A DNA stretch of 64,000 nucleotides from a virus (Duplodnaviria; Caudoviricetes), in IMG/VR virus record IMGVR_UViG_3300050821_001527, positions 96,001-160,000 of that record; one strand, given 5' to 3'. Positions 21,679 to 60,466 of the stretch are shown in pieces. Under the pieces are notes generated by a model. The model was not told the origin of the DNA. It made no database searches and worked only from the letters and a program-made list of their open reading frames with translations. Each line of letters starts with the position of its first letter. Positions within the stretch are counted from its first letter, which is position 1. The translations under genes were made by a program, and so were the position numbers.

Positions 21679-21679
21679 A

Positions 21680-23928: not shown

Positions 23929-23933
23929 TTTCC

Positions 23934-24017: not shown

Positions 24018-24022
24018 ATTTA

Positions 24023-24192: not shown

Positions 24193-24267
24193 GGTCTATT
24201 GTTGAATGAGTTATCATAGTTCCCTGTCACGGAGCAATAACGGGTGCGAGTCCCGTATAGACCGCCA
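24193..24267 (+). tRNA. tRNA-Asp(GTC)
   Basis: Loop CTGTCAC, G73. Confidence 0.9.
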
Positions 24268-24345
24268 TTTTACGGCTGAGTTAGCGATTCCTGCGCGTGG
24301 GAACGAGACGATTCACTTCGTTTAACTGATGAAGCCGCCAATTTT

Positions 24346-24422
24346 GGGATAGAAGGTAAAGTAGTGGAACCGTTCCGTTGTCTGCGGAAAAAAAGTGGGT
24401 GCGACTCCCATCTATCTCGCCA
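24346..24422 (+). tRNA. tRNA-Asp(GTC), atypical loop TTGTCTG
   Basis: Cloverleaf, G73, U37. Confidence 0.75.
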
Positions 24423-24517
24423 TTTTGTCAGAGAAGTCCGTCAACCATGCGGTTGACCCGTATGGAGAACGTCGAGTTCAGACATATTGTATAGCTGGCC
24501 ACTTAGGACTTCCGTTC

Positions 24518-24595
24518 AGTCAGTGAGGGAGTAAGATAACCCCGACGCCTGCAAAGCGTTTCGTATAGTCGGAGCATTACCGACACTGACTTCCA
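24518..24595 (+). tRNA. tRNA-Cys(GCA)
   Basis: Loop CTGCAAA, U73, T-loop AGCATTA. Confidence 0.85.
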
Positions 24596-24599
24596 TTTC

Positions 24600-24676
24600 G
24601 TCCTAATGGTGTAAGGGAATTACAACACGGTAGTCTTCGGACTACAGATGCAAGCCAACTATTGCAAGGGACTCCA
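24600..24676 (+). pseudogene. Degenerate tRNA-like gene with anticodon arm capped by C-TTCG-G
   Basis: D arm and CCA present; GTAGTC-TTCG-GACTAC; 8-nt T-loop. Confidence 0.45.
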
Positions 24677-24680
24677 ATTT

Positions 24681-24757
24681 CGGTTTGTCGCCTAGTGTTC
24701 ATGGCACTCGCCTTGGGAGCGAGCATAACGCGGGTTAAAATCCCGCCAAGCCGACCA
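24681..24757 (+). tRNA. tRNA-Pro(TGG)
   Basis: CGG start, loop CTTGGGA, T-loop TTAAAAT. Confidence 0.85.
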
Positions 24758-24765
24758 TTTTTTAG

Positions 24766-24843
24766 ACGGGGTATAATGTCAGCAGCTAGACGGCTCCCTT
24801 CGGAGGGGAGAGGCCGTGGGTGCGAATCCCACTACCCCGACCA
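24766..24843 (+). tRNA. tRNA-Pro(CGG)
   Basis: Loop TTCGGAG, T-loop TGCGAAT. Confidence 0.9.
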
Positions 24844-24847
24844 TTTA

Positions 24848-24919
24848 TGCAGGAAGAATGAGATTCAAGCGGGCCTCATAAGCCTACCCCCGTGGACGCG
24901 ACTTCCACTCCTGCTTCCA
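24848..24919 (+). tRNA. tRNA(CAT)-like, reduced D arm
   Basis: Loop CTCATAA, T-loop CGCGACT. Confidence 0.55.
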
Positions 24920-24963
24920 TTTTTTATCGAACAGAAACCGTTCTCCGATATAATAGATATTTA

Positions 24964-25041
24964 CGCGGGGTGGACAAGTAGTAAGTCGTTGGCCTCATAA
25001 GCCAAATATCGTCAGGTGCGATTCCTGACCTCACGCAACCA
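24964..25041 (+). tRNA. Initiator-type tRNA-fMet(CAT)
   Basis: CGCGGGG start, C1:A72 mismatch, loop CTCATAA. Confidence 0.8.
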
Positions 25042-25044
25042 TTT

Positions 25045-25461
25045 ATGGAAGACGCCGTTCTCAACACGCAAAAAGCCTTGGACACCGCATTGGCATCATT
25101 GAATGCGCTGGCTAAAAAAGATTACGTTCCTCCGACAACCCCCGACATTGACCCCGAAACTGAAATGCCGATTAAAGGGAATGGCACGGAAGAATATGAT
25201 ACCGAAGACGCTTACGAGGATGGGGAAGAAGCAGTCCGTCTGTGCATTGAAATTGCCCAGTTGAGGCTAGAGGTCGAGGGCCAGCCCCGCCGTGCTATCG
25301 TCAACACGGAAAAGGCGGCAGAAATCCGAGCAAGGGGAGCGATTGACAAGGTAAGACCAGAGCGTCACCTGAGCGTTTCTCCCGAACTTATCAAGAGTAT
25401 CGAACATTCCGTAGCTAAACCGGAAATGATGTTCTTCGTTTTGGAAGAACCCAAGGAATAA
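25045..25461 (+). CDS. Acidic hypothetical protein
   Basis: 138-aa ORF between tRNAs. Confidence 0.65.
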   Translation: MEDAVLNTQKALDTALASLNALAKKDYVPPTTPDIDPETEMPIKGNGTEEYDTEDAYEDGEEAVRLCIEIAQLRLEVEGQPRRAIVNTEKAAEIRARGAIDKVRPERHLSVSPELIKSIEHSVAKPEMMFFVLEEPKE

Positions 25462-25467
25462 GATTTC

Positions 25468-25542
25468 GCGTTGTTGGCAGAGAAGTGATGCGCTTGCCTT
25501 CCAAGCAAGTTTAAGTGGGAGCATTACCCACACAACGCTCCA
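25468..25542 (+). tRNA. tRNA-Gly(TCC)
   Basis: Loop CTTCCAA, U73. Confidence 0.9.
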
Positions 25543-25545
25543 ATT

Positions 25546-25970
25546 TGTCCGAAGCTATAATCCCCGTGCGTAATAGCACTAAGCGCAAGTAGGCCGAAAG
25601 GCAGAACCGTGATGGTGGATGAACTGCTCGTCTAAAATATCGGCTACATAATTTAGTCAGGTCGTCGGTCTGTCGTTGCGGTGAGCAATCACCAAGCCTA
25701 TGGGACGGCGGCTCGAAAAGGTATCCGTAAGCTGGCAGGAATCGCTTGTGCAAGATTCCACTACCGAAGGAGAATGCGGCGAAAGCCAAGTTCGTTCGCA
25801 CTTGTAGTAGGTCAGTCATCTCAGCCGAGGCAGGCATTTTCAAAATCGTTAGGGTTAGTCCAACCACGGTAAAACGTGAGAGGGGTCATAAAAGACTGCA
25901 AGCGTCACCCTGCCTAAAACCCCCTGTTGGTGAGTGGATAGTTGAAAACGAGGTCAGCGATGACCTGACT
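25546..25970 (+). ncRNA. Candidate large (~425 nt) structured ncRNA
   Basis: No credible ORF or tRNA; GNRA-capped hairpins at 25593, 25680, 25778, 25952. Confidence 0.55.
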
Positions 25971-25973
25971 TTT

Positions 25974-26049
25974 AGCCGCATGGTGAAATTACAATCACAC
26001 AATCCTGCGAAGATTGAAGTCCCGGTGAGATTCCGGGTGCTGGCTACCA
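25974..26049 (+). tRNA. tRNA-Arg(GCG)
   Basis: Loop CTGCGAA, T-loop TGAGATT. Confidence 0.85.
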
Positions 26050-26053
26050 TTTT

Positions 26054-26128
26054 GCGACATAGGTGTTTATAGATACACGCGAGTCTTCCAAACTTGAGTA
26101 GTGAGTGCGATACTCACACGTCGCTCCA
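26054..26128 (+). tRNA. tRNA-Gly(TCC)
   Basis: Loop CTTCCAA, U73. Confidence 0.85.
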
Positions 26129-26192
26129 ATTTATGCACCCAAAACTTGCAAGTTACTCGACCCATGAATCGAGTGTGGTGCAACCAATTTAT

Positions 26193-26267
26193 TCCCTAGT
26201 AGTGTCAAAGTAGCACGTCTCCCTGTTAAGGAGTTTAGTGTTGGTGCGAGTCCAACCTTCGGAACCA
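26193..26267 (+). tRNA. tRNA-Asn(GTT), mismatched acceptor
   Basis: Loop CTGTTAA. Confidence 0.7.
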
Positions 26268-26279
26268 TTTAGTCAGCAT

Positions 26280-26364
26280 TCCAGAGTAGGAGAATTGGTA
26301 AACCCAGCGGACTGTTAATCCGCCGCGAAAGCAACTGCTCGTTCAAGTCGAGCCTCTGGAGCCA
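26280..26364 (+). tRNA. tRNA-Asn(GTT) with long variable arm
   Basis: Loop CTGTTAA, V hairpin GC-GAAA-GC, canonical GG/TTC elbow, G73. Confidence 0.85.
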
Positions 26365-26474
26365 TTTTCAAGACATTTCCCCTGACGAAAGCTCTACGAT
26401 GTAGAACATCGCACCAGCAAGTCATGGTTACATGACGTGTCCGTGGACGCACGGAAGCGGGGAGTTTGAATTTT

Positions 26475-26552
26475 GCATCCGTCAACCAAACGCGTAAATG
26501 ACTCGGGCTTTTAACCCAAAGGATGTGGTCACGCAAGCCACCGGATGCACCA
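26475..26552 (+). tRNA. tRNA-Lys(TTT)
   Basis: Loop CTTTTAA, T-loop CACGCAA. Confidence 0.75.
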
Positions 26553-26670
26553 ATTTCTACCTGAACACAAGTGCTATGTCATCGAGCCAAGTCACGGTTA
26601 TTGTGTATCGTGAAAATTCCGTTGACAATGTAGCAATGCGCGAGAAAGACGCGCACGGGTTCCTTTTCAT

Positions 26671-26744
26671 AGGGATATAGTATAAAAGTAGAACGGCACC
26701 CTGACACGGTGAAGGCGAAGGAGCGTTACCTTCTATCCCTACCA
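26671..26744 (+). tRNA. tRNA-Val(GAC)
   Basis: Loop CTGACAC, T-loop AGCGTTA. Confidence 0.9.
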
Positions 26745-26750
26745 TTTTAT

Positions 26751-26831
26751 GAGAATCGAGACGCGGGTGCATATCCCGCCTGCCTGTTTAAATACTTGCA
26801 GTAGCTTAGTAGCAGAGCGCGATTCGTCTCC
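26751..26831 (+). ncRNA. Circularly permuted tRNA-like (Y-RNA-like) RNA 2
   Basis: GAATCG/CGATTC closing stem; T-arm, loop-closed CTGC/GCAG acceptor, then D arm TAGCTTAGTAGCAGAGC. Confidence 0.75.
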
Positions 26832-26838
26832 CTTTTAC

Positions 26839-26917
26839 GGAACGGTAACTCAAATGGGTCAAGAGTGTTCGCCCGATTAGCGAAAGGTTGTGGACTCCCA
26901 AGCCACTCGTTCTACCA
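26839..26917 (+). tRNA. tRNA-Ile(GAT), loop CCGATTA
   Basis: Cloverleaf with irregular T-loop. Confidence 0.65.
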
Positions 26918-26922
26918 ATCAC

Positions 26923-26995
26923 GGTTCCATACGATAAAGCAGTCCCCATGCCCGATTAGCGTGGTGTCTTGGTGCGAGTCCAAGTGGAACTACCA
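26923..26995 (+). tRNA. tRNA-Ile(GAT), loop CCGATTA
   Basis: GGTTCCA/TGGAACT, T-loop TGCGAGT. Confidence 0.7.
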
Positions 26996-27000
26996 TTTAC

Positions 27001-27076
27001 TGCCCTTTAGCTCATTCAGCAGAGCGGCGTCTTGATAAGGCGAAGGTGGTCGGGGCAGAGCCGACAAGGGCAACCA
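27001..27076 (+). tRNA. tRNA-Ile(GAT)
   Basis: Loop TTGATAA, T-loop GGCAGAG. Confidence 0.9.
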
Positions 27077-27079
27077 ATT

Positions 27080-27244
27080 ATGAAACCATACGGATTGACA
27101 AAGAAAATCCTACACAACCATCCCGATGTTCACCCGCCGAAGGGCTGGGTCAACTGGTGGGAAAGCGAAACGAGGGACTGTCTCCGCAAGAAAGCAGAAC
27201 GCCAACAGGCGAAAAAACAGATTTTACAAGATTTGGCTTCGTAG
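27080..27244 (+). CDS. Small basic hypothetical protein
   Basis: MKPYG start; stop TAG is nt 8-10 of tRNA-Lys. Confidence 0.6.
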   Translation: MKPYGLTKKILHNHPDVHPPKGWVNWWESETRDCLRKKAERQQAKKQILQDLAS

Positions 27245-27311
27245 CTCAAGCGTCAAGAGCAGCCGCCTTTTAAGCGGAAGCGTCCGGGCAGTCAATCCGG
27301 TGGGGCCACCA
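27235..27311 (+). tRNA. tRNA-Lys(TTT)
   Basis: Loop CTTTTAA, T-loop CAGTCAA. Confidence 0.85.
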
Positions 27312-27457
27312 ATTTATAAACACCTAGACCGTGTGCGATACCGGCATGGTTTCGTGAGTCGGCTATGTCGAAGCCGAAGAAGATTCGCGGGACTTGGAGT
27401 GTGAAAGAAGCACGGGTGTATTTTTTTGAATAAAAAGCGGATTCGTTTATCATAGGT

Positions 27458-27835
27458 ATGCAAAACGTTTATCTGAACCGCGACGAACTCCTGCCGATTG
27501 TCAAGGAGAACAAGCAAAAGCACGACAACATTTTTTCCACAGCCGTTTCCGGCTATTGGGTCAAGGCCGAAGAAATCCTGAACGGCAAACTGAACAAGGT
27601 CAAAGCCAAGCAGCAAGTTGACAATTACCTTGGACTCAGCTATCCCGAAGACCATTCTGATGAATATGACCGAGTAATCAGGATGCTGGAACTTTCGTCT
27701 GATGACAAGATTCAGCTTACGTCTTCCGAGTTTGATTGCTATGTTCGCAATCAATGGAACTGGCGCAAGGCGTTCTTGACGGTCAATTCAACATACATTT
27801 CGGACTGGAACCCCATTTCCGGGGCTTCATTCTAA
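27458..27835 (+). CDS. Conserved-looking phage hypothetical protein
   Basis: P.DHSDEYDRVIRMLE motif. Confidence 0.7.
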   Translation: MQNVYLNRDELLPIVKENKQKHDNIFSTAVSGYWVKAEEILNGKLNKVKAKQQVDNYLGLSYPEDHSDEYDRVIRMLELSSDDKIQLTSSEFDCYVRNQWNWRKAFLTVNSTYISDWNPISGASF

Positions 27836-27915
27836 CAGTCTTGGTCGAGGCGTGGGTTCGATTCCGCCGTGTGGCTCCATGCCGCACGTAGCTTAGTGGC
27901 AGAGCGCGACCTGTT
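27834..27915 (+). ncRNA. Circularly permuted tRNA-like (Y-RNA-like) RNA 3, Thr/Gly-type acceptor
   Basis: 3' half (GGTCG, TTCGATT T-loop, CGTGTGGC-TCCA), 1 nt, then 5' half (GCCGCACG, D arm, CGACC); ends pair AACAG/CTGTT. Confidence 0.8.
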
Positions 27916-27916
27916 C

Positions 27917-27991
27917 GGGGCTATGGTGCAGAAGTAAGCACGTTAGGTTCTCAACCTGAAAACGTCGGAGCGTTACCGACTAGCCCTACCA
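27917..27991 (+). tRNA. tRNA-Glu(CTC)
   Basis: Loop TTCTCAA, T-loop AGCGTTA. Confidence 0.85.
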
Positions 27992-27997
27992 ATTTAC

Positions 27998-28073
27998 GGG
28001 GGAGTGGTGCATAAGTAAGCACGGTTGGCTTTCACCCAGCAGAAGCTCGGAGCGTTACCGGCCTCCCCTACCA
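27998..28073 (+). tRNA. tRNA-Glu(TTC)
   Basis: Loop CTTTCAC. Confidence 0.85.
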
Positions 28074-28078
28074 TTTCT

Positions 28079-28156
28079 GTAGCTGACCAGTAAGTCGTCG
28101 TCTGCTCTGGCTTTCAACCAGATGTGTAGTGGGTGCGAGTCCCACCAGCTATGCCA
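28079..28156 (+). tRNA. tRNA-Glu(TTC)
   Basis: Loop CTTTCAA, irregular D arm. Confidence 0.75.
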
Positions 28157-28219
28157 TTTCCGGGGTGCGCCTCGTCAATTCGTTGATAGGACGGCGAATA
28201 TATCACCCCACTTTTTCTC

Positions 28220-28297
28220 GGTTCCGTGGTGTAAATGGATTAAGCACAAGAGACTTTGACCCTCTTAGCTCCGGGTGCCAGCCGGACGGAACTGCCA
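28220..28297 (+). tRNA. tRNA-Gln(TTG)
   Basis: Loop CTTTGAC. Confidence 0.8.
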
Positions 28298-28304
28298 TTT
28301 TTAT

Positions 28305-28380
28305 TCCCTCTTGGATTGTAATAGTAGCAACTCGGGCTTTGAACCCGAAAGCGGTGGGGCAGAACCATCAGAGGGAGCCA
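28305..28380 (+). tRNA. tRNA-Gln(TTG)
   Basis: U1:A72, loop CTTTGAA, G73. Confidence 0.9.
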
Positions 28381-28465
28381 TTTATCGGGGTAAGGGTGTA
28401 TTCGTGTAACGACCACTCGGAAGGAGTCTGGAAGCTTACGGACAAACTTCGTCCCCATCTATTTT

Positions 28466-28541
28466 CGGAGTGTATTGTCAACAGCAGACGGCCCGCCTTG
28501 GAAGTGGGAGGTAGTTGGGGCAGCACCAACCATTCCGACCA
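28466..28541 (+). tRNA. tRNA-Pro(TGG)
   Basis: Loop CTTGGAA, T-loop GGCAGCA. Confidence 0.9.
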
Positions 28542-28545
28542 ATTT

Positions 28546-28728
28546 ATGAACACTGAAAAAATCGTAGGTCAAGAATATCCAGCCGAATGTCTCGTTGATT
28601 CCAAGACGGGTCTGCCGGTGATGATTCGTCATACCGAAGATTCGGACAGGATTCGTCAGTTGGCGAAGGCCAGCGCGGAGAACCTTCTGAGGGCTTTGCG
28701 AGACGAAACGGGGCTGACGCCCATTTAA
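28546..28728 (+). CDS. Hypothetical protein (60 aa)
   Basis: ATG just after tRNA-Pro. Confidence 0.55.
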   Translation: MNTEKIVGQEYPAECLVDSKTGLPVMIRHTEDSDRIRQLAKASAENLLRALRDETGLTPI

Positions 28729-28733
28729 TTTAC

Positions 28734-28809
28734 GGGTCTATAACTCAAATAGATAGAGCCTCGCCTTCTAAGCGATGGGATTCAGGTGCGACTCCTGATA
28801 GACCTACCA
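28734..28809 (+). tRNA. tRNA-Arg(TCT)
   Basis: Loop CTTCTAA, T-loop TGCGACT. Confidence 0.9.
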
Positions 28810-28852
28810 TTTCTAGTATAGCCACATGGCGTTTCACAAGTGCTTCAACTAG

Positions 28853-28860
28853 GTGTAATT
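28853..28860 (+). promoter_or_regulatory. Phage GTGTAATT promoter motif
   Basis: 6 nt upstream of ATG 28867. Confidence 0.6.
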
Positions 28861-28866
28861 CTAGGT

Positions 28867-29343
28867 ATGGGCCACAAAGCTACAAACGAACAACTGGCGG
28901 TTATTATCGCAGAGTCTATTTCCTTCTCTGAGGCAATGAGAAAATGCGATATGAAGCCAAGGGGAGCGTCTTACCAATGGTTTCAAAAACGAGTTAAGAA
29001 GCTCGGATTAGACACGTCTCATTTTAAGGGATACTCGGCTGGTGGTCTGGAAAGGGCCAAGCAGATAAAGAAGCATTGGTCGGAGATTCTTGTTTTAGGA
29101 GACGGTTCGGGCAGAGAAAGGTCAGAGCCTCTTAGGAGGGCTTTTAAAGAATACTGCTTAGAGCAGGCAGTCCCACATATTTGCAACGTCTGCAACGTCT
29201 GCAAGATGGAACCAATTTGGAATGGCCAGCCAATGATATTTCAAATTGACCACATCAATTCAATCAATTTCGATAACAGACCGCTGAACCTTCAATGGAT
29301 TTGCGGCAACTGTCATCAACAGAAAAATTCTAACGGCTACTAA
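28867..29343 (+). CDS. HNH homing endonuclease
   Basis: LGLDTSHF.G N-terminus, CxxC, QIDHINSI..DNR..NL..ICGNCH. Confidence 0.9.
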   Translation: MGHKATNEQLAVIIAESISFSEAMRKCDMKPRGASYQWFQKRVKKLGLDTSHFKGYSAGGLERAKQIKKHWSEILVLGDGSGRERSEPLRRAFKEYCLEQAVPHICNVCNVCKMEPIWNGQPMIFQIDHINSINFDNRPLNLQWICGNCHQQKNSNGY

Positions 29344-29410
29344 GCTAATCAAGTGAAAGCAGCGGACTGAAAATCCGTGGAGTTTGGCGCGATACCAAAA
29401 GTAGCCACCA
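29335..29410 (+). tRNA. tRNA-Phe(GAA)
   Basis: Loop CTGAAAA, T-loop CGCGATA. Confidence 0.9.
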
Positions 29411-29415
29411 ATTTT

Positions 29416-29563
29416 GGGTATATGTTGTAATGGCAGCAAAAAGGGCGGGAGAGTCGAGGGAATAGCAGACCAACTATAGCTCTGTAAGCCTAGTAGCTCG
29501 ATTTGAAAACCTGAATACTCGTCTATACGAGTGGCCTCGGTTCGATTCCGGGTATATCCACCA
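29416..29563 (+). tRNA. tRNA with ~52-nt hairpin insert in the anticodon loop, long V arm, G3:U70
   Basis: GGGTATA/TATATCC-ACCA, D arm with GG, ACTCGT/ACGAGT V arm, TTCGATT T-loop; identity unresolved. Confidence 0.65.
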
Positions 29564-29567
29564 ATCT

Positions 29568-29646
29568 CCGTCAGTAGCTCAAATGTGGTAAGAGCGTTGG
29601 TTTGAAACACCAAAGGTTGTCGTTCCCCAAACGACTTGACGGGCCA
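29568..29646 (+). tRNA. tRNA-Phe(GAA)
   Basis: Loop TTGAAAC, T-loop TCCCCAA. Confidence 0.75.
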
Positions 29647-29666
29647 TTTTAAGTGTATAATTCTGT

Positions 29667-29921
29667 GTGGAAGCACTAGCAAAACAGACCCTTCAATGTG
29701 ATGACTGCAAGAAAGTCATTGACACCCGCCGCGATACTGACCTTGAGGACAGCATCCAAGCGAAGTTGAAGAACCTCAAGGGCGACCCGCAGGTTTATCA
29801 TTTCTGCGCGGAAAGCTGCCTTGCCTCCTTTTTGCAGAAGCGCATCAAGAAAAAGAACGCCCGCGCCTCATACGACGCTTTCGCCTACGAGATTGATTTG
29901 TCCGGGGCAAAGGTTAAATAA
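29667..29921 (+). CDS. Small Cys-containing hypothetical protein
   Basis: CDDC, FC..SC. Confidence 0.6.
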   Translation: MEALAKQTLQCDDCKKVIDTRRDTDLEDSIQAKLKNLKGDPQVYHFCAESCLASFLQKRIKKKNARASYDAFAYEIDLSGAKVK

Positions 29922-30130
29922 TGAAATTTTCATCTTTCGCCAAGCTTGTGTTGATTTTCGGGGCAGCGATTATGCTCCTTGATGGTTGCGCTCTCGTTGG
30001 TTGTAATCACGCATTCCCGCAAGTCGAATGGTATTGGTCAGCCGATGCTAAAGCCTGTCGCAAGGAACACGCGATGGAAGCCCAGTGGCGACAGTCCGCA
30101 ACAAACAATTTAAGGCAGTCGTTCAAGTGA
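29921..30130 (+). CDS. Small lipoprotein-like protein
   Basis: Signal peptide with LDGC; stop lies in next tRNA. Confidence 0.55.
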   Translation: MKFSSFAKLVLIFGAAIMLLDGCALVGCNHAFPQVEWYWSADAKACRKEHAMEAQWRQSATNNLRQSFK

Positions 30131-30184
30131 ACAAGATGCTCTCATAAGGCGTCAAGGATGGAGCGTTACCATCGTCTGCTACCA
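30114..30184 (+). tRNA. tRNA(CAT) elongator Met or Ile2
   Basis: Loop CTCATAA, 4-nt D loop. Confidence 0.75.
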
Positions 30185-30189
30185 ATTTC

Positions 30190-30266
30190 GGATTCGTAGC
30201 TCAAATGCTAAGAGCAGCCGGTTCTTACCCGGAAGGTTGTGGCTCGTCAAGCCACCGAGTCCACCA
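30190..30266 (+). tRNA. tRNA-Lys(CTT)
   Basis: Loop TTCTTAC, T-loop TCGTCAA. Confidence 0.85.
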
Positions 30267-30344
30267 TTTATGGCCGTCAGCCTGAACCCCATCAGGCTAG
30301 TCCACCAAGGACGATGCAGAGGGTTATGCAACGGCATCCATTTC

Positions 30345-30416
30345 GCCAGTGCCGTCAGCACGGATTCGAGTTTTGTAAACTTGAAGCAGTCGGGGCAGCA
30401 CCGACCTCTGGCTCCA
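30345..30416 (+). tRNA. tRNA-Thr(TGT)
   Basis: Loop TTTGTAA, CAGC D tetraloop, U73. Confidence 0.8.
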
Positions 30417-30420
30417 TTTC

Positions 30421-30556
30421 GCCGTTCTAGTTCAATGTAGAACACGTCTCTCGAAAAGCCGATAGGCTCCCTGAACGGAGCAGTTAGTGGGGTGTTTGCC
30501 CTGCGATGTAATAAGGCCAGATGAACTGCTGGTGCCAAGTCCAGCGAACGGCTCCA
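30421..30556 (+). tRNA. Thr-type tRNA body with ~62-nt insert in the anticodon loop
   Basis: GCCGTTC/GAACGGC-TCCA, D arm GTTC/GAAC, anticodon stem CGTCT/AGATG. Confidence 0.7.
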
Positions 30557-30626
30557 AACTAGGCTGCGCGTGGTAGCCTCAGAGGGGTGAAAGTCCCTAA
30601 CCACGACAAATTTAATTCAATTTAAT

Positions 30627-30701
30627 CGCCCGTTCTGAATAATAGTAGTTCGTCGCGCTCTGAACGCGAAGGCGGTGGGGCAGAACCATCACGGGTGGCC
30701 A
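30627..30701 (+). tRNA. tRNA-Gln(CTG)
   Basis: Loop CTCTGAA, G73. Confidence 0.85.
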
Positions 30702-30706
30702 TTTAC

Positions 30707-30780
30707 GCGGGATTAGCTCAAAAGTAGAGCGAGTCGTTTACACCGACAGGACGAGGGAGCATTACCTTCATTCCGCACCA
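30707..30780 (+). tRNA. tRNA-Val(TAC)
   Basis: Loop TTTACAC. Confidence 0.9.
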
Positions 30781-30785
30781 TTTAC

Positions 30786-30862
30786 GCAATCGAAGCTACA
30801 GCAGACCGGCTCCCGGCTCTTAACCGGATTTGGTGAGGTTGCAACTACCTCCGATTGCACCA
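30786..30862 (+). tRNA. tRNA-Lys(CTT)
   Basis: Loop CTCTTAA, T-loop TGCAACT. Confidence 0.8.
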
Positions 30863-30866
30863 TTTC

Positions 30867-30946
30867 GCGGTCTTAGCTTAAACGGATAAAAGCCCTTCGC
30901 TCTTAACGAATGAGATGTCGCCCTCCAAGCAGGACAGACCGCACCA
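30867..30946 (+). tRNA. tRNA-Lys(CTT), aberrant T arm
   Basis: Loop CTCTTAA, 3-bp T stem with large loop. Confidence 0.65.
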
Positions 30947-31006
30947 ATTTGATTACACCCCTGCCGCCTCTTGACAATGCGTAATCGCAGGGGTTTTTCC
31001 ATTTAT

Positions 31007-31092
31007 GGCCGTGTGTAGCGTAAGGGAAAAGCAGAACCGATAGACTTAAAATCTGTTGCTACTTGAGGGTGCAAGACCGTCCACGGCTACCA
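31007..31092 (+). tRNA. tRNA-Leu(TAA), expanded D region, 8-nt V
   Basis: Loop CTTAAAA, T-loop TGCAAGA. Confidence 0.75.
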
Positions 31093-31111
31093 ATTTAGTG
31101 TAATGTTTGTC

Positions 31112-31189
31112 ATGGACAACTCAAAGCCTTGGTGGAAAGAAGAATGGTTTGAAACTTGGCTGAAAATTGCCCGCCGTCAGTTCTCGTAA
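31112..31189 (+). CDS. 25-aa Trp-rich micropeptide
   Basis: ATG 6 nt after GTGTAATG (31098-31105). Confidence 0.45.
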   Translation: MDNSKPWWKEEWFETWLKIARRQFS

Positions 31190-31193
31190 ATGC

Positions 31194-31201
31194 GTGTAAT
31201 A
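31194..31201 (+). promoter_or_regulatory. Phage GTGTAATA promoter motif
   Basis: 6 nt upstream of ATG 31208. Confidence 0.65.
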
Positions 31202-31207
31202 AGAAGT

Positions 31208-31966
31208 ATGGGAAAGTTACTAAGACTCGGAAGAAAGCAAGCCCGCTTCGACAAGCGCACTTTGAAGCTGGAAGACTACATTTCTGCTGATTTACAGTTC
31301 CCCCGCAAGGTTGTTTGGCAGAACAAGATTCCAAATTGGGGCATGATGCTTAACGACCAGTTGGGAGATTGCACCTGTGCCGCTGCCGGTCACATGATTA
31401 TGAACTGGACGGCCAATGCGGGCGTCCTCGTCACCCCAAACGACAACCAAATTCTTTCCGCTTACGAAGCCGTTGGGGGATACAACCCAAATGCCGCTCC
31501 CGACGCCAATGGAAACAACCCAACCGATAACGGTGCCGTTGAACTTGACGTTTTGAAGTATTGGCAGGGAACCGGAATCGCCGGTCACAAAATCGGGGCT
31601 TACGTCAGCATTGACCCGAAGAACAGACGCCACTTGAAGTTGGCTATCTGGCTGTTTGGGGGAATTTACACAGGTGTCAACCTCACGCAAGCGGACATGG
31701 ACGCCACCAACGCAAACCAGCCTTGGAAATACACCACCGGTTCCTCGATTGGCGGTCACGCCATTCCTGCCTTGGGATTCAACCAGCACGGCTTTCAATT
31801 CATTACATGGGGAGCCGTTCAAACGGCCACTCCTGAATGGGTCGCCAACCAAACCGAAGAAGTTTACGCCTTGATTTCCGCAGATTGGCTTGAAAACAAT
31901 GGCAATGCTCCCTCTGGTTTTGATGCTCAACAACTTGCCGCCGACTTAAAAAGCGTCCAAAACTAA
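31208..31966 (+). CDS. Papain-like (C1-type) cysteine peptidase
   Basis: DQLGDCTCAA catalytic Cys, GGHAI catalytic His, ITWG. Confidence 0.8.
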   Translation: MGKLLRLGRKQARFDKRTLKLEDYISADLQFPRKVVWQNKIPNWGMMLNDQLGDCTCAAAGHMIMNWTANAGVLVTPNDNQILSAYEAVGGYNPNAAPDANGNNPTDNGAVELDVLKYWQGTGIAGHKIGAYVSIDPKNRRHLKLAIWLFGGIYTGVNLTQADMDATNANQPWKYTTGSSIGGHAIPALGFNQHGFQFITWGAVQTATPEWVANQTEEVYALISADWLENNGNAPSGFDAQQLAADLKSVQN

Positions 31967-32010
31967 TTCAAAATATTTGCTTGGGCCAAGCCATCCGGGT
32001 ATAATATGGC

Positions 32011-33357
32011 ATGAGTCCGTCGTCTAATGCCGTTCAGCCGCTCAAGGTAGTTTTTTGCACTACCTGCAAGGGCCGCGTAAGTCACATCAAGAAAACCCTC
32101 CCCAAGAATTTGGCCGATAATCCCGGCGCGACCTTTATCCTTCTGGATTACAATGATAGTGGTGAATTAGCTTACCACGTCCGCAACGCCTGCCAGTCCG
32201 AAATTAAAGAGGGCAGGCTGGTGTATTATCAATACCGAGACAATGTTCCCTTCCGCATGGCTCACGCCAAAAACATGGCGCACAGGCTCGGAATCATGGA
32301 AGGCGCGGATATTCTGGTGAACTTGGACGCCGACAATCGCACGGGCGAAGGCTTCGCTGAATACATCGCGGAAAACTTCACCCGCACCCGCAACGACCCG
32401 CAGGAAATTTTCATGTGGAGCAGGATGATTAAAGGGGTTCTGAAACGCGGAATCACCGGGCGCATTGTGGTCAGCAAAAACGCTTTTCTTCTCGCTGGCG
32501 GATACGACGAACAGTATGCCACTTACTCCCCGGACGATAAAGATTTTGAAGCCCGCTTACGCAGACTGGGATTCTGTGCCCAAGAGATTGACAGCAAGTA
32601 TCTGGACGCGGTATATCACGACGACAACGTAAGATTCAAGGAATACGCCCATTTGCTTGAGACGAGCGCAGCATACGAAACCCCCTGCATCTCTCCGCAC
32701 AACCGCGTAGTCAATAACGGTAAATTTGGTTGCGGGGTTGTTTACAAGAATTTCGACGAGACTCCAATCACGCTTGCTCCGGTTCCTACCCGTATTTTTG
32801 GCATCGGGATGCACAAGACCGCAACGACCTCTTTAAGCGAAGCCCTGACCATCCTTGGGCTAAAGTCGGGTCATTGGGAACACCCGCGCTGGGCTAGACA
32901 AGTCTGGTCTGACATGAAGAATGTCGGTAGCTCTCCATCCGTGGAAAAGTATTATGCGCTTAGTGATTTGCCAATCGGAATTCTGTTTAGAGAATTGGAC
33001 GTGGCTTATCCGGGGTCGAAGTTCATCCTGACTGTCCGCGATGAATATGAATGGTTGAAGTCGGTTGAGAAACACTTTGATAGAAACATCAATCCCTACC
33101 GTAATTCATGGGACAACGATGCCTTTACCCACAGACTACACAACGAAATCTATGGACAGAGAAAATTCTCTTACCGTGTGTTCGTGGAGAGATACAGGAA
33201 GCACAACGCGGAAGTCTTGGAGTATTTCAAGGACAGACCGAATGATTTGCTGGTTATGAACGTTGACGATAAGACTGGATGGACAGAGCTATGCGCCTTT
33301 TTGGGCCAGCCAGTTCCTTCTATGAGCTATCCGAGAAAGTTCGTGACCAAGAAATAA
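32011..33357 (+). CDS. Glycosyltransferase (GT2/GT7-like) fused to P-loop sulfotransferase
   Basis: N-terminal LDAD, GGYDE..DD.DF..RL; C-terminal IFGIGMHKTATTSL, P.SKFILTVR, W..LC.FL. Confidence 0.85.
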   Translation: MSPSSNAVQPLKVVFCTTCKGRVSHIKKTLPKNLADNPGATFILLDYNDSGELAYHVRNACQSEIKEGRLVYYQYRDNVPFRMAHAKNMAHRLGIMEGADILVNLDADNRTGEGFAEYIAENFTRTRNDPQEIFMWSRMIKGVLKRGITGRIVVSKNAFLLAGGYDEQYATYSPDDKDFEARLRRLGFCAQEIDSKYLDAVYHDDNVRFKEYAHLLETSAAYETPCISPHNRVVNNGKFGCGVVYKNFDETPITLAPVPTRIFGIGMHKTATTSLSEALTILGLKSGHWEHPRWARQVWSDMKNVGSSPSVEKYYALSDLPIGILFRELDVAYPGSKFILTVRDEYEWLKSVEKHFDRNINPYRNSWDNDAFTHRLHNEIYGQRKFSYRVFVERYRKHNAEVLEYFKDRPNDLLVMNVDDKTGWTELCAFLGQPVPSMSYPRKFVTKK

Positions 33358-33370
33358 ATTGAATTTTATT

Positions 33371-33460
33371 GGAAGATAAAGTAGTGAGGCAGCTACAACG
33401 CGGTGCTAACGCGATTGCCCCTCTAAAGGGGGTGGGGTTCGAGTCCTCTATCTTCCGCCA
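33371..33460 (+). tRNA. tRNA-Ser(GCT)
   Basis: Loop GTGCTAA, long V, TTC T-loop, G73. Confidence 0.9.
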
Positions 33461-33465
33461 AATTT

Positions 33466-33678
33466 ATGACCACTAACGAAAAAATACTAGCGACACTCGG
33501 CGAGATGCCAGCGGGCGCGAAAATCATGTATTTCGCATTTGACGGCGACACGGGAGAGCTTTTGTCTGCTGTATATTTCAACAAGACGTATTTCCTGAAT
33601 GGACGAGAGGACGTGGCCGAAAAAGCTGCCGAACGCTTGGGTTCGGAAGTCTGCTCCAAGATGCCAGAAGCTCCATAA
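33466..33678 (+). CDS. Hypothetical protein
   Basis: ATG right after tRNA-Ser. Confidence 0.6.
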   Translation: MTTNEKILATLGEMPAGAKIMYFAFDGDTGELLSAVYFNKTYFLNGREDVAEKAAERLGSEVCSKMPEAP

Positions 33679-33718
33679 ATTTCTTGACTTCCCATGAAAA
33701 TTTTCATAGGATAATGGG

Positions 33719-34432
33719 GTGTTAATCAAGACTTACAAGGCCAGCGATGAAGTAAAAATCGTTACGATAAACGTGACGAAATTTCCACTGGTCATAATCA
33801 CAGACAGCCATACGAACGTAGCCAACGTCCGTCAACTCAAGGAGTTGTATCCAGACAGTCCGTTCGTTAGTCTCGGAGACATTACTTTTCTCTTTGCCAA
33901 ACCGGGCGAAAAATACAACGCAAGGTCTGTCCAGTATTTCATTGACAACAAAATCCCCTGCCTCAAGGGAAACCATGAAGAACACCTTGTCTCCTGCGCG
34001 GCCTCTGATAACGGGGACAGTCTGGTGATTTTCAAGGCCATCCCGCGATTCGACGAGCATTCCAGCCTGTATGACAAATACGACCTGTCGCAGCAGCATA
34101 CGGATTATCTCAAGGGTCTGCCAATGGGCTTCAAGCTGGTTTTGCCGAATAAGGACGAGTATCTTTGCTTCCATAACCGTCCGTCCGATTTGTGGAGTTT
34201 CACAGAGGAAGCCTTTACACAAGAAGCCTTTGAAAAGACCTACCCGCTTTCGGAGCGAACCAAGTCGGTTATCATTGGCCACAATCATCGCCATTTTGTC
34301 AAGCAATATCCTTCCGGCAAGAGCCTGACGTGTATCGGCAGGTTGAGCGTTGACGGCGATTATGCGCTCTTGACCGAGCGAGGGATTGAGCAAAAAAGGC
34401 TCCCGAAGTCCTTGACTTACTTAGAAAAGTAA
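33719..34432 (+). CDS. Calcineurin-like metallophosphoesterase
   Basis: DSH, GD, GNHE, FH, GHNH motifs. Confidence 0.85.
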   Translation: MLIKTYKASDEVKIVTINVTKFPLVIITDSHTNVANVRQLKELYPDSPFVSLGDITFLFAKPGEKYNARSVQYFIDNKIPCLKGNHEEHLVSCAASDNGDSLVIFKAIPRFDEHSSLYDKYDLSQQHTDYLKGLPMGFKLVLPNKDEYLCFHNRPSDLWSFTEEAFTQEAFEKTYPLSERTKSVIIGHNHRHFVKQYPSGKSLTCIGRLSVDGDYALLTERGIEQKRLPKSLTYLEK

Positions 34433-34448
34433 CGTAGTATCATTTTAC

Positions 34449-34526
34449 GCATCAGTATTGGCACTCTTTCCTAAAGAGGACGCGCATAATTGGACGATGT
34501 GGGTTCGACTCCCTCCTGATGCACCA
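34449..34526 (+). tRNA. D-armless tRNA-Arg(CCT)-like RNA
   Basis: GCATCAG/CTGATGC-ACCA, CTCT-TTCCTAA-AGAG, 8-nt D replacement, 20-nt V. Confidence 0.6.
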
Positions 34527-34532
34527 ATCTAC

Positions 34533-37261: not shown

Positions 37262-37582
37262 ATGTCCGTCATTCCAGAAACTAAAGTCGTAAATATCCGT
37301 TTCGAGCCTTACGACGTTTACGTTGGCCGCGCCGGGATGGGACTGTCAGGAGAGTTTGGGAACTCGCATCCCGTGGACAAATATTGCTGGCTCTGTAAAA
37401 AGGTGCATAACCGAAAAGAGTCCATCGAGGCTTTCCGAAAAGATTTTCAGAAACAAATCCAAGACCCGGTATTTCGAGCGCGAGTATTGACGCTGAAAGG
37501 GAAAAAGCTTGGTTGTTTCTGCCACCCGGCCCCGTGTCACGCAGGCGTTTACAAAGAGTGGCTTGATAATTTGGTAGAGTAA
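37262..37582 (+). CDS. DUF4326-family protein
   Basis: YDVYVGR, FGN, L.GKKLGCFCHP.PCH. Confidence 0.85.
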   Translation: MSVIPETKVVNIRFEPYDVYVGRAGMGLSGEFGNSHPVDKYCWLCKKVHNRKESIEAFRKDFQKQIQDPVFRARVLTLKGKKLGCFCHPAPCHAGVYKEWLDNLVE

Positions 37583-37666
37583 ATAATCCGGCGATTATCA
37601 CCGCCTTGAAAGCGGCTGGAACGTGCTAATACCACGTTTGGGGGTCGGCACCTCACTTTACCGCCA
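37573..37666 (+). tRNA. tRNA-Ser(TGA)
   Basis: Loop CTTGAAA, long V, G73. Confidence 0.85.
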
Positions 37667-59296: not shown

Positions 59297-60466
59297 ATGA
59301 AAATCTACGCCGAAAACACTCGCGTCCCAATCAAGTCTTGGTGTGAAAACCCGGAAGCCGGGGCTATCAAGCAGGCCGAGAACATGGCCAACCTGCCATT
59401 CACTTTCAGACACGTCGCCCTCATGCCCGACACCCATCAAGGCTTTGGTATGCCTATCGGTGGAGTTCTGGCTACCGATAACGTCATCATTCCGAACGCT
59501 GTCGGAGTTGACATTGGGTGCGGTATGTGTTCCATCGAATCCAACATCCAAACTTGGGACAGGGAACTGTTGACGGAAGCCATCAAGGAAATCCGCTACA
59601 ACGTTCCTGTCGGATTCAGCCGCCATCTTACCGCGAAGCCTGTGGACAAGCTGCCCGCCAGCACGTCCCCGAACGCCTACTATGAGAAGTTCCTTGAGCC
59701 GTCCCTGTTCCAACTCGGAACCTTGGGCGGCGGGAATCACTTCATCGAATTACAGAAGAACCCGAACGGAAATCTGTGCGTGATGATTCACTCTGGTAGC
59801 CGCAACATCGGGAAGCAGGTTGCCGACTATTACAACAAGCTCGCCCTCGCTCTGAACCAGCGTTATTTCAGTCAGGTCACGAAGGAAACCGACTTGGCGT
59901 TCCTGCCGCTTGACTCTGCCGAGGGTCAGGCTTACTTGGCGGAAATGACTTACTGTGTCGCGTTTGCCTTGGCGAACCGCATGGAAATGATGAACGCTTG
60001 CCAGCAAGCCATCTACAAGGTTTTCAAGCCTTTGCAACAGGTCGAGTTCACGAACTTCATCAACATTCCGCACAATTATGCGAAGGTTGAAAAGCACTTC
60101 GGCAAGGAAGTCGTCGTCCACCGCAAGGGCGCGACGAATGCCAGCGAGGGCGTCATTGGGCTAATCCCCGGCTCGCAGGGCACCAAGAGCTACGTGGTGC
60201 GCGGCAAGGGTAATCGTGAGAGCTTCGAGAGTTGCTCCCACGGCGCAGGCCGCAAGATGGGCCGCATGGTCGCCAAACGCACTCTGAACATCGAAGACGA
60301 GCAACGCAAGCTGGACGAACTTGGAGTCATTCATGCCGTCCGCGCCAACTCTGACTTGGACGAGGCTCCGGGTTCCTATAAGGACATTGACGTGGTTATG
60401 AGCGAGCAAACCGACCTGATTGACGTTATCGAAGAACGCACTCCTTTGGGAGTCGTGAAGGGGTAA
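59297..60466 (+). CDS. rtcB: RtcB RNA 3'-phosphate/5'-OH ligase
   Basis: MPDTH.G.G.PIG, GVDIGCG, GTLGGGNHFIE, HSGSR, HN, HRKGA, SHGAGR, DEAP.SYK. Confidence 0.97.
   Translation: MKIYAENTRVPIKSWCENPEAGAIKQAENMANLPFTFRHVALMPDTHQGFGMPIGGVLATDNVIIPNAVGVDIGCGMCSIESNIQTWDRELLTEAIKEIRYNVPVGFSRHLTAKPVDKLPASTSPNAYYEKFLEPSLFQLGTLGGGNHFIELQKNPNGNLCVMIHSGSRNIGKQVADYYNKLALALNQRYFSQVTKETDLAFLPLDSAEGQAYLAEMTYCVAFALANRMEMMNACQQAIYKVFKPLQQVEFTNFINIPHNYAKVEKHFGKEVVVHRKGATNASEGVIGLIPGSQGTKSYVVRGKGNRESFESCSHGAGRKMGRMVAKRTLNIEDEQRKLDELGVIHAVRANSDLDEAPGSYKDIDVVMSEQTDLIDVIEERTPLGVVKG

What the first reader, a model, noticed from the sequence alone, without database searches (positions are those of the whole stretch)
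29416..29563. G3:U70 long-V tRNA with a hairpin insert in the anticodon loop
Seen: canonical elbow, Ala identity pair G3:U70 with A73, a class II V arm, and about 52 nt (29451-29502, GTCGAG/CTCGAT stem) inserted just before TTGAAAACC, the usual tRNA-Ser(UGA) loop and stem. It is too short for a group I intron. Inference: a protein-spliced intron (nuclease plus RtcB) that would yield a Ser-codon reader with Ala identity, or an unspliced decoy.
Basis: partly seen in the sequence, partly recalled or inferred. Interest (0 to 1): 0.7.

Follow-up and report, generated by a model that had tools for sequence, protein, structure and literature searches.

The report
Orphan alanine-type tRNA look-alike with insert
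A 203-kb soil phage carries, inside its roughly 50-gene tRNA cluster, a 148-base gene that is a well-formed tRNA body with the alanine recognition mark and about 51-56 extra bases where the anticodon loop should be; its nearest relatives lack it and nothing shows it is spliced, so it is more likely a non-decoding tRNA look-alike than a split serine tRNA.

Summary
Window 29416-29563 is a tRNA-derived gene, set in phase in a large phage tRNA array. It has a perfect 7-bp acceptor stem, an encoded CCA, a canonical D/T elbow, a long variable arm, and G3:U70 with A73. In this array that acceptor signature occurs only in the three tRNA-Ala genes and in this element.

The anticodon arm is interrupted by 51-56 nt. 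The GTCGAG/CTCGAT hairpin exists but is no better than chance, and the insert folds no better than shuffled sequence.

Deleting the insert restores only a weak anticodon stem of 3-4 pairs, in two competing registers. ARAGORN calls tRNA-Ser(UGA) plus a 51-nt intron only below its default threshold.

The phage already has an uninterrupted tRNA-Ser(UGA), with G73. Its genome encodes RtcB but no splicing endonuclease, and I found no bulge-helix-bulge motif above chance and no known ribozyme. Two syntenic relatives lack the whole gene. I found no homologue anywhere I searched. Metatranscriptome contigs carry the unspliced form.

My best reading (0.4) is an unspliced, non-decoding tRNA mimic that is probably charged with alanine. 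The rivals are a protein-spliced intron (0.3) and a functionless relic (0.2).

Earlier notes of this scan describe similar insert-bearing tRNA-shaped genes in other phages. None is shown to be related in sequence to this one.

The parts
29416..29422 (+). Acceptor stem, 5' strand (GGGTATA), with G3 of the G3:U70 pair
   Evidence: Pairs 7/7 with 29553-29559
29425..29439 (+). D arm: stem TTGT/GCAA and loop AATGGCA with G18 G19. ARAGORN's alternative pairs TTGT with AAAG (29440-29443) around an 11-nt loop
   Evidence: Sequence; ARAGORN drawing
29441..29450 (+). Two overlapping candidate 5' strands of the anticodon stem: AAGGG (29441-29445) or CGGGA (29446-29450)
   Evidence: Each gives only 3-4 standard pairs with ACCTG at 29509-29513
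29451..29501 (+). The insert: 51 nt in ARAGORN's register, or 56 nt (29447-29502) in the canonical-spacing register. It holds an outer helix (29451-29458 with 29497-29504) and an inner helix GCAGA/TCTGT (29465-29469 with 29481-29485) around an 11-nt loop
   Evidence: Stability and helix length are at chance level. It is single copy in the genome
29502..29513 (+). Anticodon-loop-like TTTGAAA (TGA at 29504-29506), followed by the 3' strand of the anticodon stem, ACCTG
   Evidence: Sequence; ARAGORN relaxed call as tRNA-Ser(tga)
29516..29533 (+). Long variable arm: 7-bp stem with a 4-nt loop
29536..29552 (+). T arm with the canonical loop TTCGATT. Most tRNAs of this array have G at position 55 instead
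29553..29563 (+). Acceptor stem 3' strand (TATATCC, with U70), discriminator A73, and encoded CCA
59297..60466 (+). RtcB RNA ligase gene. This is context only: it is the ligase the splicing reading would need
   Evidence: Pfam PF01139, E 4.3e-108
37573..37666 (+). Uninterrupted class-II tRNA-Ser(UGA) with G73. It makes a second Ser(UGA) decoder unnecessary
   Evidence: It is homologous to tRNA-Ser(UGA) at L105 7445-7538

Best explanation
The element is an accessory, lineage-specific gene for a tRNA-shaped RNA that does not decode.

It is transcribed with the tRNA array. Its perfect acceptor stem, canonical elbow and encoded CCA should let RNase P and 3'-end trimming release it as a 148-nt RNA. 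G1:C72, G2:C71, G3:U70 and A73 should let the host alanyl-tRNA synthetase charge it.

It has no 5-bp stem with a 7-nt loop. In that place it carries a long irregular arm of about 73 nt, so it cannot present an anticodon to the ribosome.

What is shown: the anatomy, the alanine-type acceptor signature, the presence of the unspliced form in RNA libraries, and the absence of the gene from relatives.

What is inferred: that it stays unspliced, that it is alanylated, and that it acts as a mimic. Possible roles are a decoy for a host tRNA-directed enzyme or a carrier of alanine. No partner is known.
For: - The tRNA shell is intact and in phase with the array.
- The G3:U70/A73 signature is shared only with the three tRNA-Ala genes.
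- No canonical anticodon arm is present, and only 3-4 pairs remain after any excision.
- Rfam and default ARAGORN do not call a tRNA here.
- The phage already has intact tRNA-Ser UGA, CGA, GGA and GCU and a Tyr(GUA) anticodon arm, so no decoder is missing that this gene would supply.
- Searches of the phage genome found no EndA, no ribozyme hit and no bulge-helix-bulge motif above chance.
- RNA-library contigs carry the full-length unspliced sequence: X2 contig 28403-30702, and JGI contig L188, which is identical to window 27315-30701. In those libraries contigs break near several tRNA boundaries and depth is uneven, unlike the DNA runs. This argues for RNA and against DNA carry-over.
- The same array holds another insert-bearing tRNA-shaped gene at 30421-30556. 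I also read two more outside the window.
Against: - No homologue was found, so there is no conservation or covariation to show that the long arm is a selected structure.
- The insert is no more stable than shuffled sequence.
- The nearest syntenic relatives lack the gene. This fits an accessory gene, but it also fits junk.
- The 3' half of a normal anticodon loop and stem (U33-like T, TGA, AA, ACCTG) is kept. A pure mimic would not need it.
- No partner protein was identified. The genome search found no TROVE/Ro60, FemAB, LPG-synthase C domain or AlaRS.
- Charging was not tested.
Confidence: 0.4

Rival explanations
1. The gene is an intron-containing tRNA. An unidentified endonuclease, from host or phage, cuts out 51-56 nt at position 31/32 or 32/33, and the phage RtcB joins the halves. 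The product is a class-II tRNA with anticodon UGA that AlaRS charges, so UCA and related Ser codons would be read as Ala.
For: - RtcB is encoded 30 kb downstream.
- A 320-nt circular RNA from the same array in metatranscriptome X4 shows that array transcripts are cut and joined in vivo.
- ARAGORN, with introns allowed and its threshold at 95%, models tRNA-Ser(tga) of 97 nt plus a 51-nt intron.
- The 3' half of the anticodon loop and stem is intact.
- The insert shows no sign of being a selected structure, which an intron need not be.
- Lak megaphages were reported to have tRNA genes with unexplained introns (PMC6784885).
- Long-variable-arm tRNAs with G3:U70 insert Ala in E. coli (PMC5389517).
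Against: - No EndA and no archease are in the phage.
- Bulge-helix-bulge motifs are at chance level (9 found against 5.7 expected) and none lies at the proposed junctions.
- No known ribozyme matches at E up to 10.
- The intron position is non-canonical.
- The restored stem has only 3-4 pairs, and needs either an odd D arm or mismatches at both stem ends.
- An intact tRNA-Ser(UGA) exists.
- An Ala-charged UCA reader would also mistranslate the phage's own proteins.
- No gene with and without the insert exists among relatives. They lack the whole gene.
Confidence: 0.3
2. The gene is a functionless relic. A tRNA gene picked up from a host or another phage, suggested by its canonical elbow in an array of rewired elbows, had its anticodon arm destroyed by an insertion or rearrangement. 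It is still transcribed and processed only because it sits in the array.
For: - It is absent from both syntenic relatives. In L219 a spacer of about 40 nt takes its place.
- The neighbouring ORF84 is an orphan and is also absent there.
- The gene lies next to a homing-type HNH endonuclease gene.
- The insert has no above-chance structure.
- There is no paralogue in the genome.
Against: - All four shell helices are perfect or near perfect, and the tertiary-contact bases U8, A14, G18, G19, A21, G53:C61 and T54-C56 are in place. That is not expected after long neutral decay.
- There is no target-site duplication and no similarity of the insert to any mobile element.
- Without relatives, the age of the gene cannot be estimated.
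Confidence: 0.2
3. The gene is a miniature tmRNA-like rescue RNA: an alanine-charged tRNA-like domain followed by a very short reading frame (GCA GAC CAA CTA TAG at 29465-29479).
For: G3:U70/A73 as in tmRNA. A 4-codon frame starting with an Ala codon and ending in a stop can be read in the insert.
Against: - The phage has a full tmRNA at 12618-13001.
- There are no pseudoknots.
- The only tmRNA-type Rfam match is a 10.2-bit, E 6.4 hit to permuted tmRNA that spans the T arm and the next gene.
- A normal D stem and a variable arm are present.
- A frame this short is expected by chance.
Confidence: 0.03

Closest known systems
'Enigmatic' introns in tRNA genes of Lak megaphages (Devoto et al. 2019, PMC6784885)
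   Same: A phage tRNA gene longer than expected, with an insert too short to self-splice in the anticodon region. The excision mechanism is unknown.
   Different: In Lak phages the same tRNA occurs with and without the insert, and the inserts are identical across cohorts. Here relatives lack the whole gene, no second copy of the insert exists, and the stem restored by excision is poor.
Archaeal/eukaryal protein-spliced tRNA introns (bulge-helix-bulge, EndA/TSEN, RtcB)
   Same: The insert size is in their range, and an RtcB ligase is encoded by the same genome.
   Different: No EndA was found, no bulge-helix-bulge motif lies at the putative junctions, the insert is at 31/32 or 32/33 and not at 37/38, and the setting is bacterial and phage.
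Long-variable-arm tRNAs with G3:U70 (allo-tRNAs of Acidobacteria and others; Mukai et al. 2017, PMC5389517)
   Same: A long variable arm combined with G3:U70. In that paper such tRNAs inserted alanine in E. coli. The paper raises soil bacteria and phages, and possible non-translational roles.
   Different: Allo-tRNAs are defined by an 8/4 or 9/3 acceptor/T architecture and have a normal anticodon loop. This gene is 7/5 and has no anticodon loop.
YrlA-type Y RNAs and other non-decoding tRNA-like RNAs of bacteria and phages (Rfam RF02553)
   Same: A tRNA-like body joined to a non-tRNA arm, located in a phage tRNA cluster with RtcB in the genome.
   Different: YrlA is circularly permuted, with no free acceptor end, and works with Ro60. 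This gene has normal topology with CCA. No TROVE gene is present. The RF02553 match is 17.2 bits against a cutoff of 69 and spans two genes.
tmRNA tRNA-like domain
   Same: An alanine-accepting (G3:U70, A73), non-decoding tRNA-like RNA.
   Different: There are no pseudoknots and no credible tag frame. A D stem and a variable arm are present. A bona fide tmRNA is encoded elsewhere in the window.

Membership tests
Canonical tRNA (Rfam RF00005 / ARAGORN) | 7-bp acceptor stem, D arm with G18 G19, and 5-bp T stem with T54-T55-C56 loop | tested here: met
Canonical tRNA (Rfam RF00005 / ARAGORN) | 5-bp anticodon stem closing a 7-nt loop, and a model score above threshold | tested here: not met
   63 nt lie between the best stem strands. 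The only Rfam tRNA hit is 15.1 bits (cutoff 29) on the 3' part. ARAGORN at default settings finds nothing
Bacterial tRNA-Ser | Long variable arm | tested here: met
   7-bp stem, 29516-29533
Bacterial tRNA-Ser | Discriminator G73 (established SerRS identity knowledge; the phage's own tRNA-Ser genes read here have G73) | tested here: not met
   A73 at 29560. G73 in tRNA-Ser GCU and in tRNA-Ser UGA and CGA (read)
Bacterial tRNA-Ser | Ser anticodon presented in a 7-nt loop | tested here: inconclusive
   This holds only after a hypothetical removal of 51-56 nt
AlaRS substrates (tRNA-Ala, tmRNA) | G3:U70 wobble pair, supported by A73 and G2:C71 | tested here: met
   the signature is shared only with the three tRNA-Ala genes of the array. 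Actual charging was not tested
Protein-spliced tRNA intron (BHB / EndA / RtcB) | Bulge-helix-bulge motif placing both splice sites in 3-nt bulges | tested here: not met
   9 BHB-like arrangements against 5.7 in shuffles, and none at the proposed junctions
Protein-spliced tRNA intron (BHB / EndA / RtcB) | Splicing endonuclease available | tested here: not met
   PF01974 is absent from the 203-kb phage record, while the controls ring. The host genome is unknown
Protein-spliced tRNA intron (BHB / EndA / RtcB) | RtcB-type ligase available | tested here: met
   PF01139, E 4.3e-108, at 59297-60466
Protein-spliced tRNA intron (BHB / EndA / RtcB) | Spliced junction present in RNA | not testable with these tools
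   Only contigs of the RNA runs could be laid, and contigs drop rare forms
Group I intron in tRNA | Catalytic core of about 200 nt or more, and a match to RF00028 | tested here: not met
   The insert is 51-56 nt. No Rfam hit at E up to 10
Small self-cleaving ribozymes (hammerhead, twister, pistol, hatchet, HDV-like) | Match to the Rfam covariance models | tested here: not met
   No such family among the matches at E up to 10 in 29300-29700
YrlA / Y RNA | Permuted tRNA-like module, Ro60-binding stem, and a Ro60 (TROVE) gene | tested here: not met
   Normal topology with a free CCA end. RF02553 scores 17.2 bits against a cutoff of 69. No TROVE gene
allo-tRNA (Mukai 2017) | 8/4 or 9/3 acceptor/T-stem architecture | tested here: not met
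   The architecture is 7/5. The definition is from PMC5389517
Lak-type phage tRNA intron | The same tRNA gene found with and without the insert in related phages | tested here: not met
   Syntenic relatives L219 and L105 lack the whole gene

The most novel reading that the evidence does not exclude
The insert is a real mini-intron. A nuclease not yet known in bacteria or phages removes it and the phage RtcB rejoins the halves. The product is an alanine-charged class-II tRNA that reads UCA/UCN serine codons. That would be a phage-encoded, splicing-gated Ser-to-Ala recoding tRNA.
Probability: 0.2. Interest if true: 0.85.

Novelty: new variant of a known kind. Interest (0 to 1): 0.42.

Why it matters
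Protein-dependent tRNA splicing is not known in bacteria or their viruses. Phage tRNA clusters nevertheless keep turning up tRNA genes with short inserts, and phages often carry RtcB.

This example is anatomically clean. It has a perfect shell and an unambiguous alanine acceptor signature, and it lies in a genome where RNA cutting and joining visibly happens (the circular RNA at 25652-25971).

If the RNA is spliced, it would show a new splicing route and deliberate Ser-to-Ala recoding. If it is not, it adds an alanine-type member to the poorly understood set of non-decoding tRNA mimics that large phages carry.

At present it is a single orphan sequence without conservation, which limits what can be concluded.

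Tried and rejected
- **Homologue searches, all negative or chance hits.**
  - blastn against 50,697 phage records. Only generic 3'-half tRNA matches of 32 nt or less came back.
  - An exact T-arm/acceptor word in IMG/VR and in GTDB genomes.
  - Three motif patterns built from insert loops plus TTGAAAA or the T loop. They gave 2, 71, 11 and 6 hits, all coding sequence or unrelated tRNAs on inspection.
  - A conserved tRNA-Arg(TCT) word, meant to fish out relatives' arrays from JGI metagenomes: 0 hits.
  - BLAST and a single-sequence covariance model (R1) over 37 whole phage records, 151 Acidobacteriota genomes and 7 relatives' loci. Only ordinary tRNA-Ser, tRNA-Ala and similar matched. One of the 151 genomes, G062, is unpublished; nothing here rests on it.
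- **Relatives by protein.**
  - RtcB relatives are at most 58% identical and not kin.
  - Terminase relatives are short fragments.
  - The 258-aa neighbour gave L082, L104, L179 and L180, none with the array, and L105, which has it.
  - ORF84 has no homologue.
  - The HNH search finally gave the informative syntenic contig L219.
- **Spliced junction.** No joint at the element appears in the contigs of two RNA and two DNA runs. Contigs drop rare forms, so this says nothing about absence.
- **Bulge-helix-bulge scan.** At chance level.
- **Nested permuted tRNA.** Rejected by inspection of the sequence. The 38 nt inside the outer helix are too few to hold a T arm, an acceptor hairpin and a D arm.
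- **tRNA-Tyr origin.** The insert has GCAGA and CTGTAAG, which resemble a Tyr anticodon arm as I recall it for E. coli. No helix closes around CTGTAAG, and a separate Tyr(GUA) arm exists at 22361-22377.
- **tRNA-Phe reading of TTGAAAA.** The flanking stem has only 3 pairs.
- **Partner enzymes.** Archease, Rnl2-type ligase, TROVE, FemAB, the LPG-synthase C domain and AlaRS are all absent from the phage.

Full report
**Setting**

The window is bases 96001-160000 of a 202,882-bp IMG/VR virus record, estimated 91% complete. The DNA is found in soil metagenomes.

Window 20.6-37.8 kb is a very large tRNA array on the + strand. Nearly every unit carries an encoded CCA followed by (A)TTT. Most units have non-standard T loops with G at position 55 (TGCGAGT, AGCGTTA, GGCAGAA, CGCGATA) and D loops without GG. 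As a result ARAGORN finds only 17 tRNAs and Rfam 20.

The window also encodes a tmRNA at 12618-13001 and an RtcB ligase at 59297-60466 (Pfam E 4.3e-108).

**The observation**

Window 29416-29563 (148 nt) begins 5 nt after the CCA of tRNA-Phe(GAA) 29335-29410 and ends 4 nt before the next tRNA-Phe-like gene at 29568-29646. Its parts are:
- a perfect 7-bp acceptor stem (GGGTATA with TATATCC), including G3:T70
- A73 and CCA
- a D arm, TTGT / AATGGCA / GCAA, with G18 G19
- a canonical T arm, CTCGG / TTCGATT / CCGGG
- a 7-bp variable arm at 29516-29533

I tabulated 47 array units. G3:U70, together with G1:C72, G2:C71 and A73, occurs only in the three tRNA-Ala genes (21438, 21998, 22163) and in this element. 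The alanine-type acceptor end is therefore not an accident of a wobble-rich array.

Between the D arm and the variable arm lie 73 nt (29441-29513) where 17 are expected. It is not remarkable:
- 17% of shuffles of this stretch give a helix at least as long.
- The insert and its sub-parts fold no better than shuffled sequence, with z from -0.4 to +0.2.
- The whole gene has z -0.83.

**Does removing the insert make a tRNA?**

Only weakly, and in two competing registers.

With canonical spacing (one base after the D stem, two before the variable arm), the anticodon stem is 29441-29445 with 29509-29513. That gives A.G, A:U, G:C, G:C, G.A. Removing 56 nt then leaves the loop C/TTTGAAA.

ARAGORN finds nothing with introns allowed at its default threshold. 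At 95% of the threshold it calls tRNA-Ser(tga), 97 nt, with a 51-nt intron at 29451-29501. To do so it uses CGGGA with ACCTG (C:G, G.U, G:C, G:C, A.A), a D stem with one mismatch around an 11-nt loop, and a 2-nt connector.

By contrast, the other insert-bearing gene of the array (30421-30556) has a perfect 5-bp stem, CGTCT with AGATG, a normal 5' half-loop and an insert at 37/38. ARAGORN calls it at its default threshold.

**Is a Ser(UGA) decoder needed?**

No. The array holds:
- an uninterrupted class-II tRNA-Ser(UGA) with G73 at 37573-37666
- tRNA-Ser(CGA) and tRNA-Ser(GGA) nearby
- tRNA-Ser(GCU) at 33371-33460
- a Tyr(GUA) anticodon arm at 22361-22377

The intact tRNA-Ser(UGA) has an orthologue in a related phage contig, L105 7445-7538. 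The element's A73 and G3:U70 are not Ser-like. They are Ala-like.

**Splicing machinery**

The phage encodes RtcB. It encodes no EndA-type endonuclease, no archease and no Rnl2-type ligase.

A brute-force scan found 9 bulge-helix-bulge-like arrangements against 5.7 in shuffles, and none sits at the proposed junctions. Rfam at E up to 10 over 29300-29700 reports no ribozyme or intron family. It gives only the two flanking tRNAs, a 15-bit partial tRNA match and a 17-bit YrlA match that straddles two genes.

**RNA evidence**

Two soil metatranscriptome runs hold the region. In them, contigs break near several tRNA boundaries and depth is uneven, from 5 to 70 and up to 242 in one spot. The DNA runs give one continuous contig at flat depth. 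The RNA libraries therefore appear to reflect RNA.

RNA contig X2 #14 (28403-30702) carries the element unspliced. So does a JGI contig, L188, which is identical to window 27315-30701. The unspliced precursor or product thus exists as RNA. These are contigs, so a rare spliced form cannot be excluded.

The same data show that cutting and joining does happen in this array. Run X4 has a circular 320-nt contig at depth 242, with its joint at 25971 to 25652 give or take 2 nt. The DNA runs do not have this joint.

**Relatives**

No homologue of the element was found in any collection I could search. The list is under Tried and rejected.

The useful result came from the neighbouring HNH gene. An ENA contig, L219, encodes a 66%-identical HNH and keeps the local order: Arg(TCT), HNH, Phe, Phe', Met(CAT), Lys(CTT). 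In the alignment the two flanking tRNA-Phe genes are conserved, with compensatory changes in their stems. The 148-nt element is missing, and about 40 nt holding a TTGACA...TATCAAT promoter-like pair take its place.

A second syntenic contig, L105, also lacks the element. The two small ORFs downstream are likewise specific to this phage.

So the element is a lineage-specific addition to a conserved array. It is not an interrupted copy of a conserved tRNA, and no version without the insert is known. It has no paralogue in the genome. Its canonical elbow stands out among the rewired neighbours, which suggests acquisition from outside.

**Weighing**

Three observations favour an RNA that stays 148 nt long and cannot decode: the intact, alanine-marked shell; the missing anticodon arm; and the redundancy of the Ser reading. 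Three more weigh the same way: the lack of any recognisable excision signal or nuclease, the presence of the unspliced RNA, and other tRNA-shaped genes with inserts in the same genome.

AlaRS reads the acceptor stem alone, which is established knowledge. tmRNA is charged this way, and long-variable-arm tRNAs with G3:U70 inserted Ala in E. coli (PMC5389517). Alanylation of the mimic is therefore a reasonable inference, though untested.

Against this reading, nothing shows that the long arm is a selected structure, and no partner is known.

The intron reading keeps real weight. Supporting it are RtcB, proven RNA joining in the array, the intact 3' half of an anticodon loop, and the Lak-phage precedent (PMC6784885).

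A recently acquired, broken gene is the third possibility.

My odds are:
- unspliced functional mimic, 0.4
- spliced tRNA, 0.3
- relic, 0.2
- other, 0.1

**Comparison with the known**

The element works most like the non-decoding tRNA mimics of phage tRNA clusters. Under the rival reading it works like the unexplained Lak-phage tRNA introns.

It is not a member of the following families, because a defining feature was tested and not met in each (see Membership tests):
- canonical tRNA
- tRNA-Ser
- YrlA
- allo-tRNA
- tmRNA
- group I introns
- bulge-helix-bulge introns

Earlier notes of this scan describe comparable insert-bearing tRNA-shaped genes in other phages, including one first read as Ser(UGA) with a 58-nt insert. 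I could not show any sequence relation between them and this element.

Noticed in passing
window 25652-25971 (joint ambiguous by 2 nt): RNA run X4 has a circular 320-nt contig at depth 242, more than 10 times its flanks. Neither DNA run has the joint. The circle coincides with a raiA-motif-like RNA: RF03072 over 25659-25966, 54.9 bits, E 1.8e-12, full model length, below the gathering score of 101. Its 3' end lies 1-3 nt before the next tRNA (Arg GCG, 25974/5-26050), and its two ends pair as AGTCAGGTC with GACCTGACT. A phage-encoded, circularised raiA-like RNA is not mentioned in the one raiA paper I checked (PMC10861870).
   Followed up: partly
window 30421-30556: A second insert-bearing tRNA-shaped gene, 136 nt. 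It has a perfect acceptor, D and T arms, and a perfect 5-bp anticodon stem (CGTCT with AGATG) around 69 nt. The stretch starts CTCGAA, which is a normal 5' half-loop. ARAGORN calls it Ser(cga) with a 62-nt intron at the canonical 37/38 site. The body is class I with U73, and an intact class-II tRNA-Ser(CGA) exists near 37020-37115.
   Followed up: partly
window 20682-37825: In the array, roughly 40 of about 50 tRNAs have G at T-loop position 55 (TGCGAGT, AGCGTTA, GGCAGAA, CGCGATA) and D loops reading AG where GG is normal. Only a few, among them this element, Ser(GCU) and Asn 26280, keep the canonical GG with TTC.
   Followed up: partly
window 23763-23846, 23934-24017, 31007-31092; L105 2959-3042: The tRNA-Leu genes (CAA, TAG, TAA) are 84-86 nt but have short variable regions. 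The extra length sits between the acceptor stem and the anticodon stem, in an enlarged D region. The form is conserved in the related contig L105.
   Followed up: no
window 26839-26917 and 26923-26995: Two adjacent tRNA-like genes have the anticodon loop CCGATTA, with C instead of the near-universal U at position 33.
   Followed up: no
L105 6813-6903: The related phage contig carries a class-II tRNA whose anticodon loop reads TTCTAAA (anticodon CUA). It is a candidate amber suppressor. I saw no counterpart in this window.
   Followed up: no
window 28840-29343 and L219 778-1266: The HNH endonuclease ORF ends inside the first bases of the following tRNA-Phe, both in this phage and in the 66%-identical relative.
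   Followed up: partly
window 22072-22162: A 91-nt gap unit has paired ends (CCGGCC with GGTCGG, then CCA). A T-arm-like hairpin comes first and a D-arm-like part second, which is a permuted tRNA-like order. The genome has no TROVE/Ro60 gene.
   Followed up: no
L219 1307-1351: In the relative, the spacer that takes the place of the element carries a TTGACA-N17-TATCAAT promoter-like pair. An internal array promoter may have been displaced or replaced in this phage.
   Followed up: no
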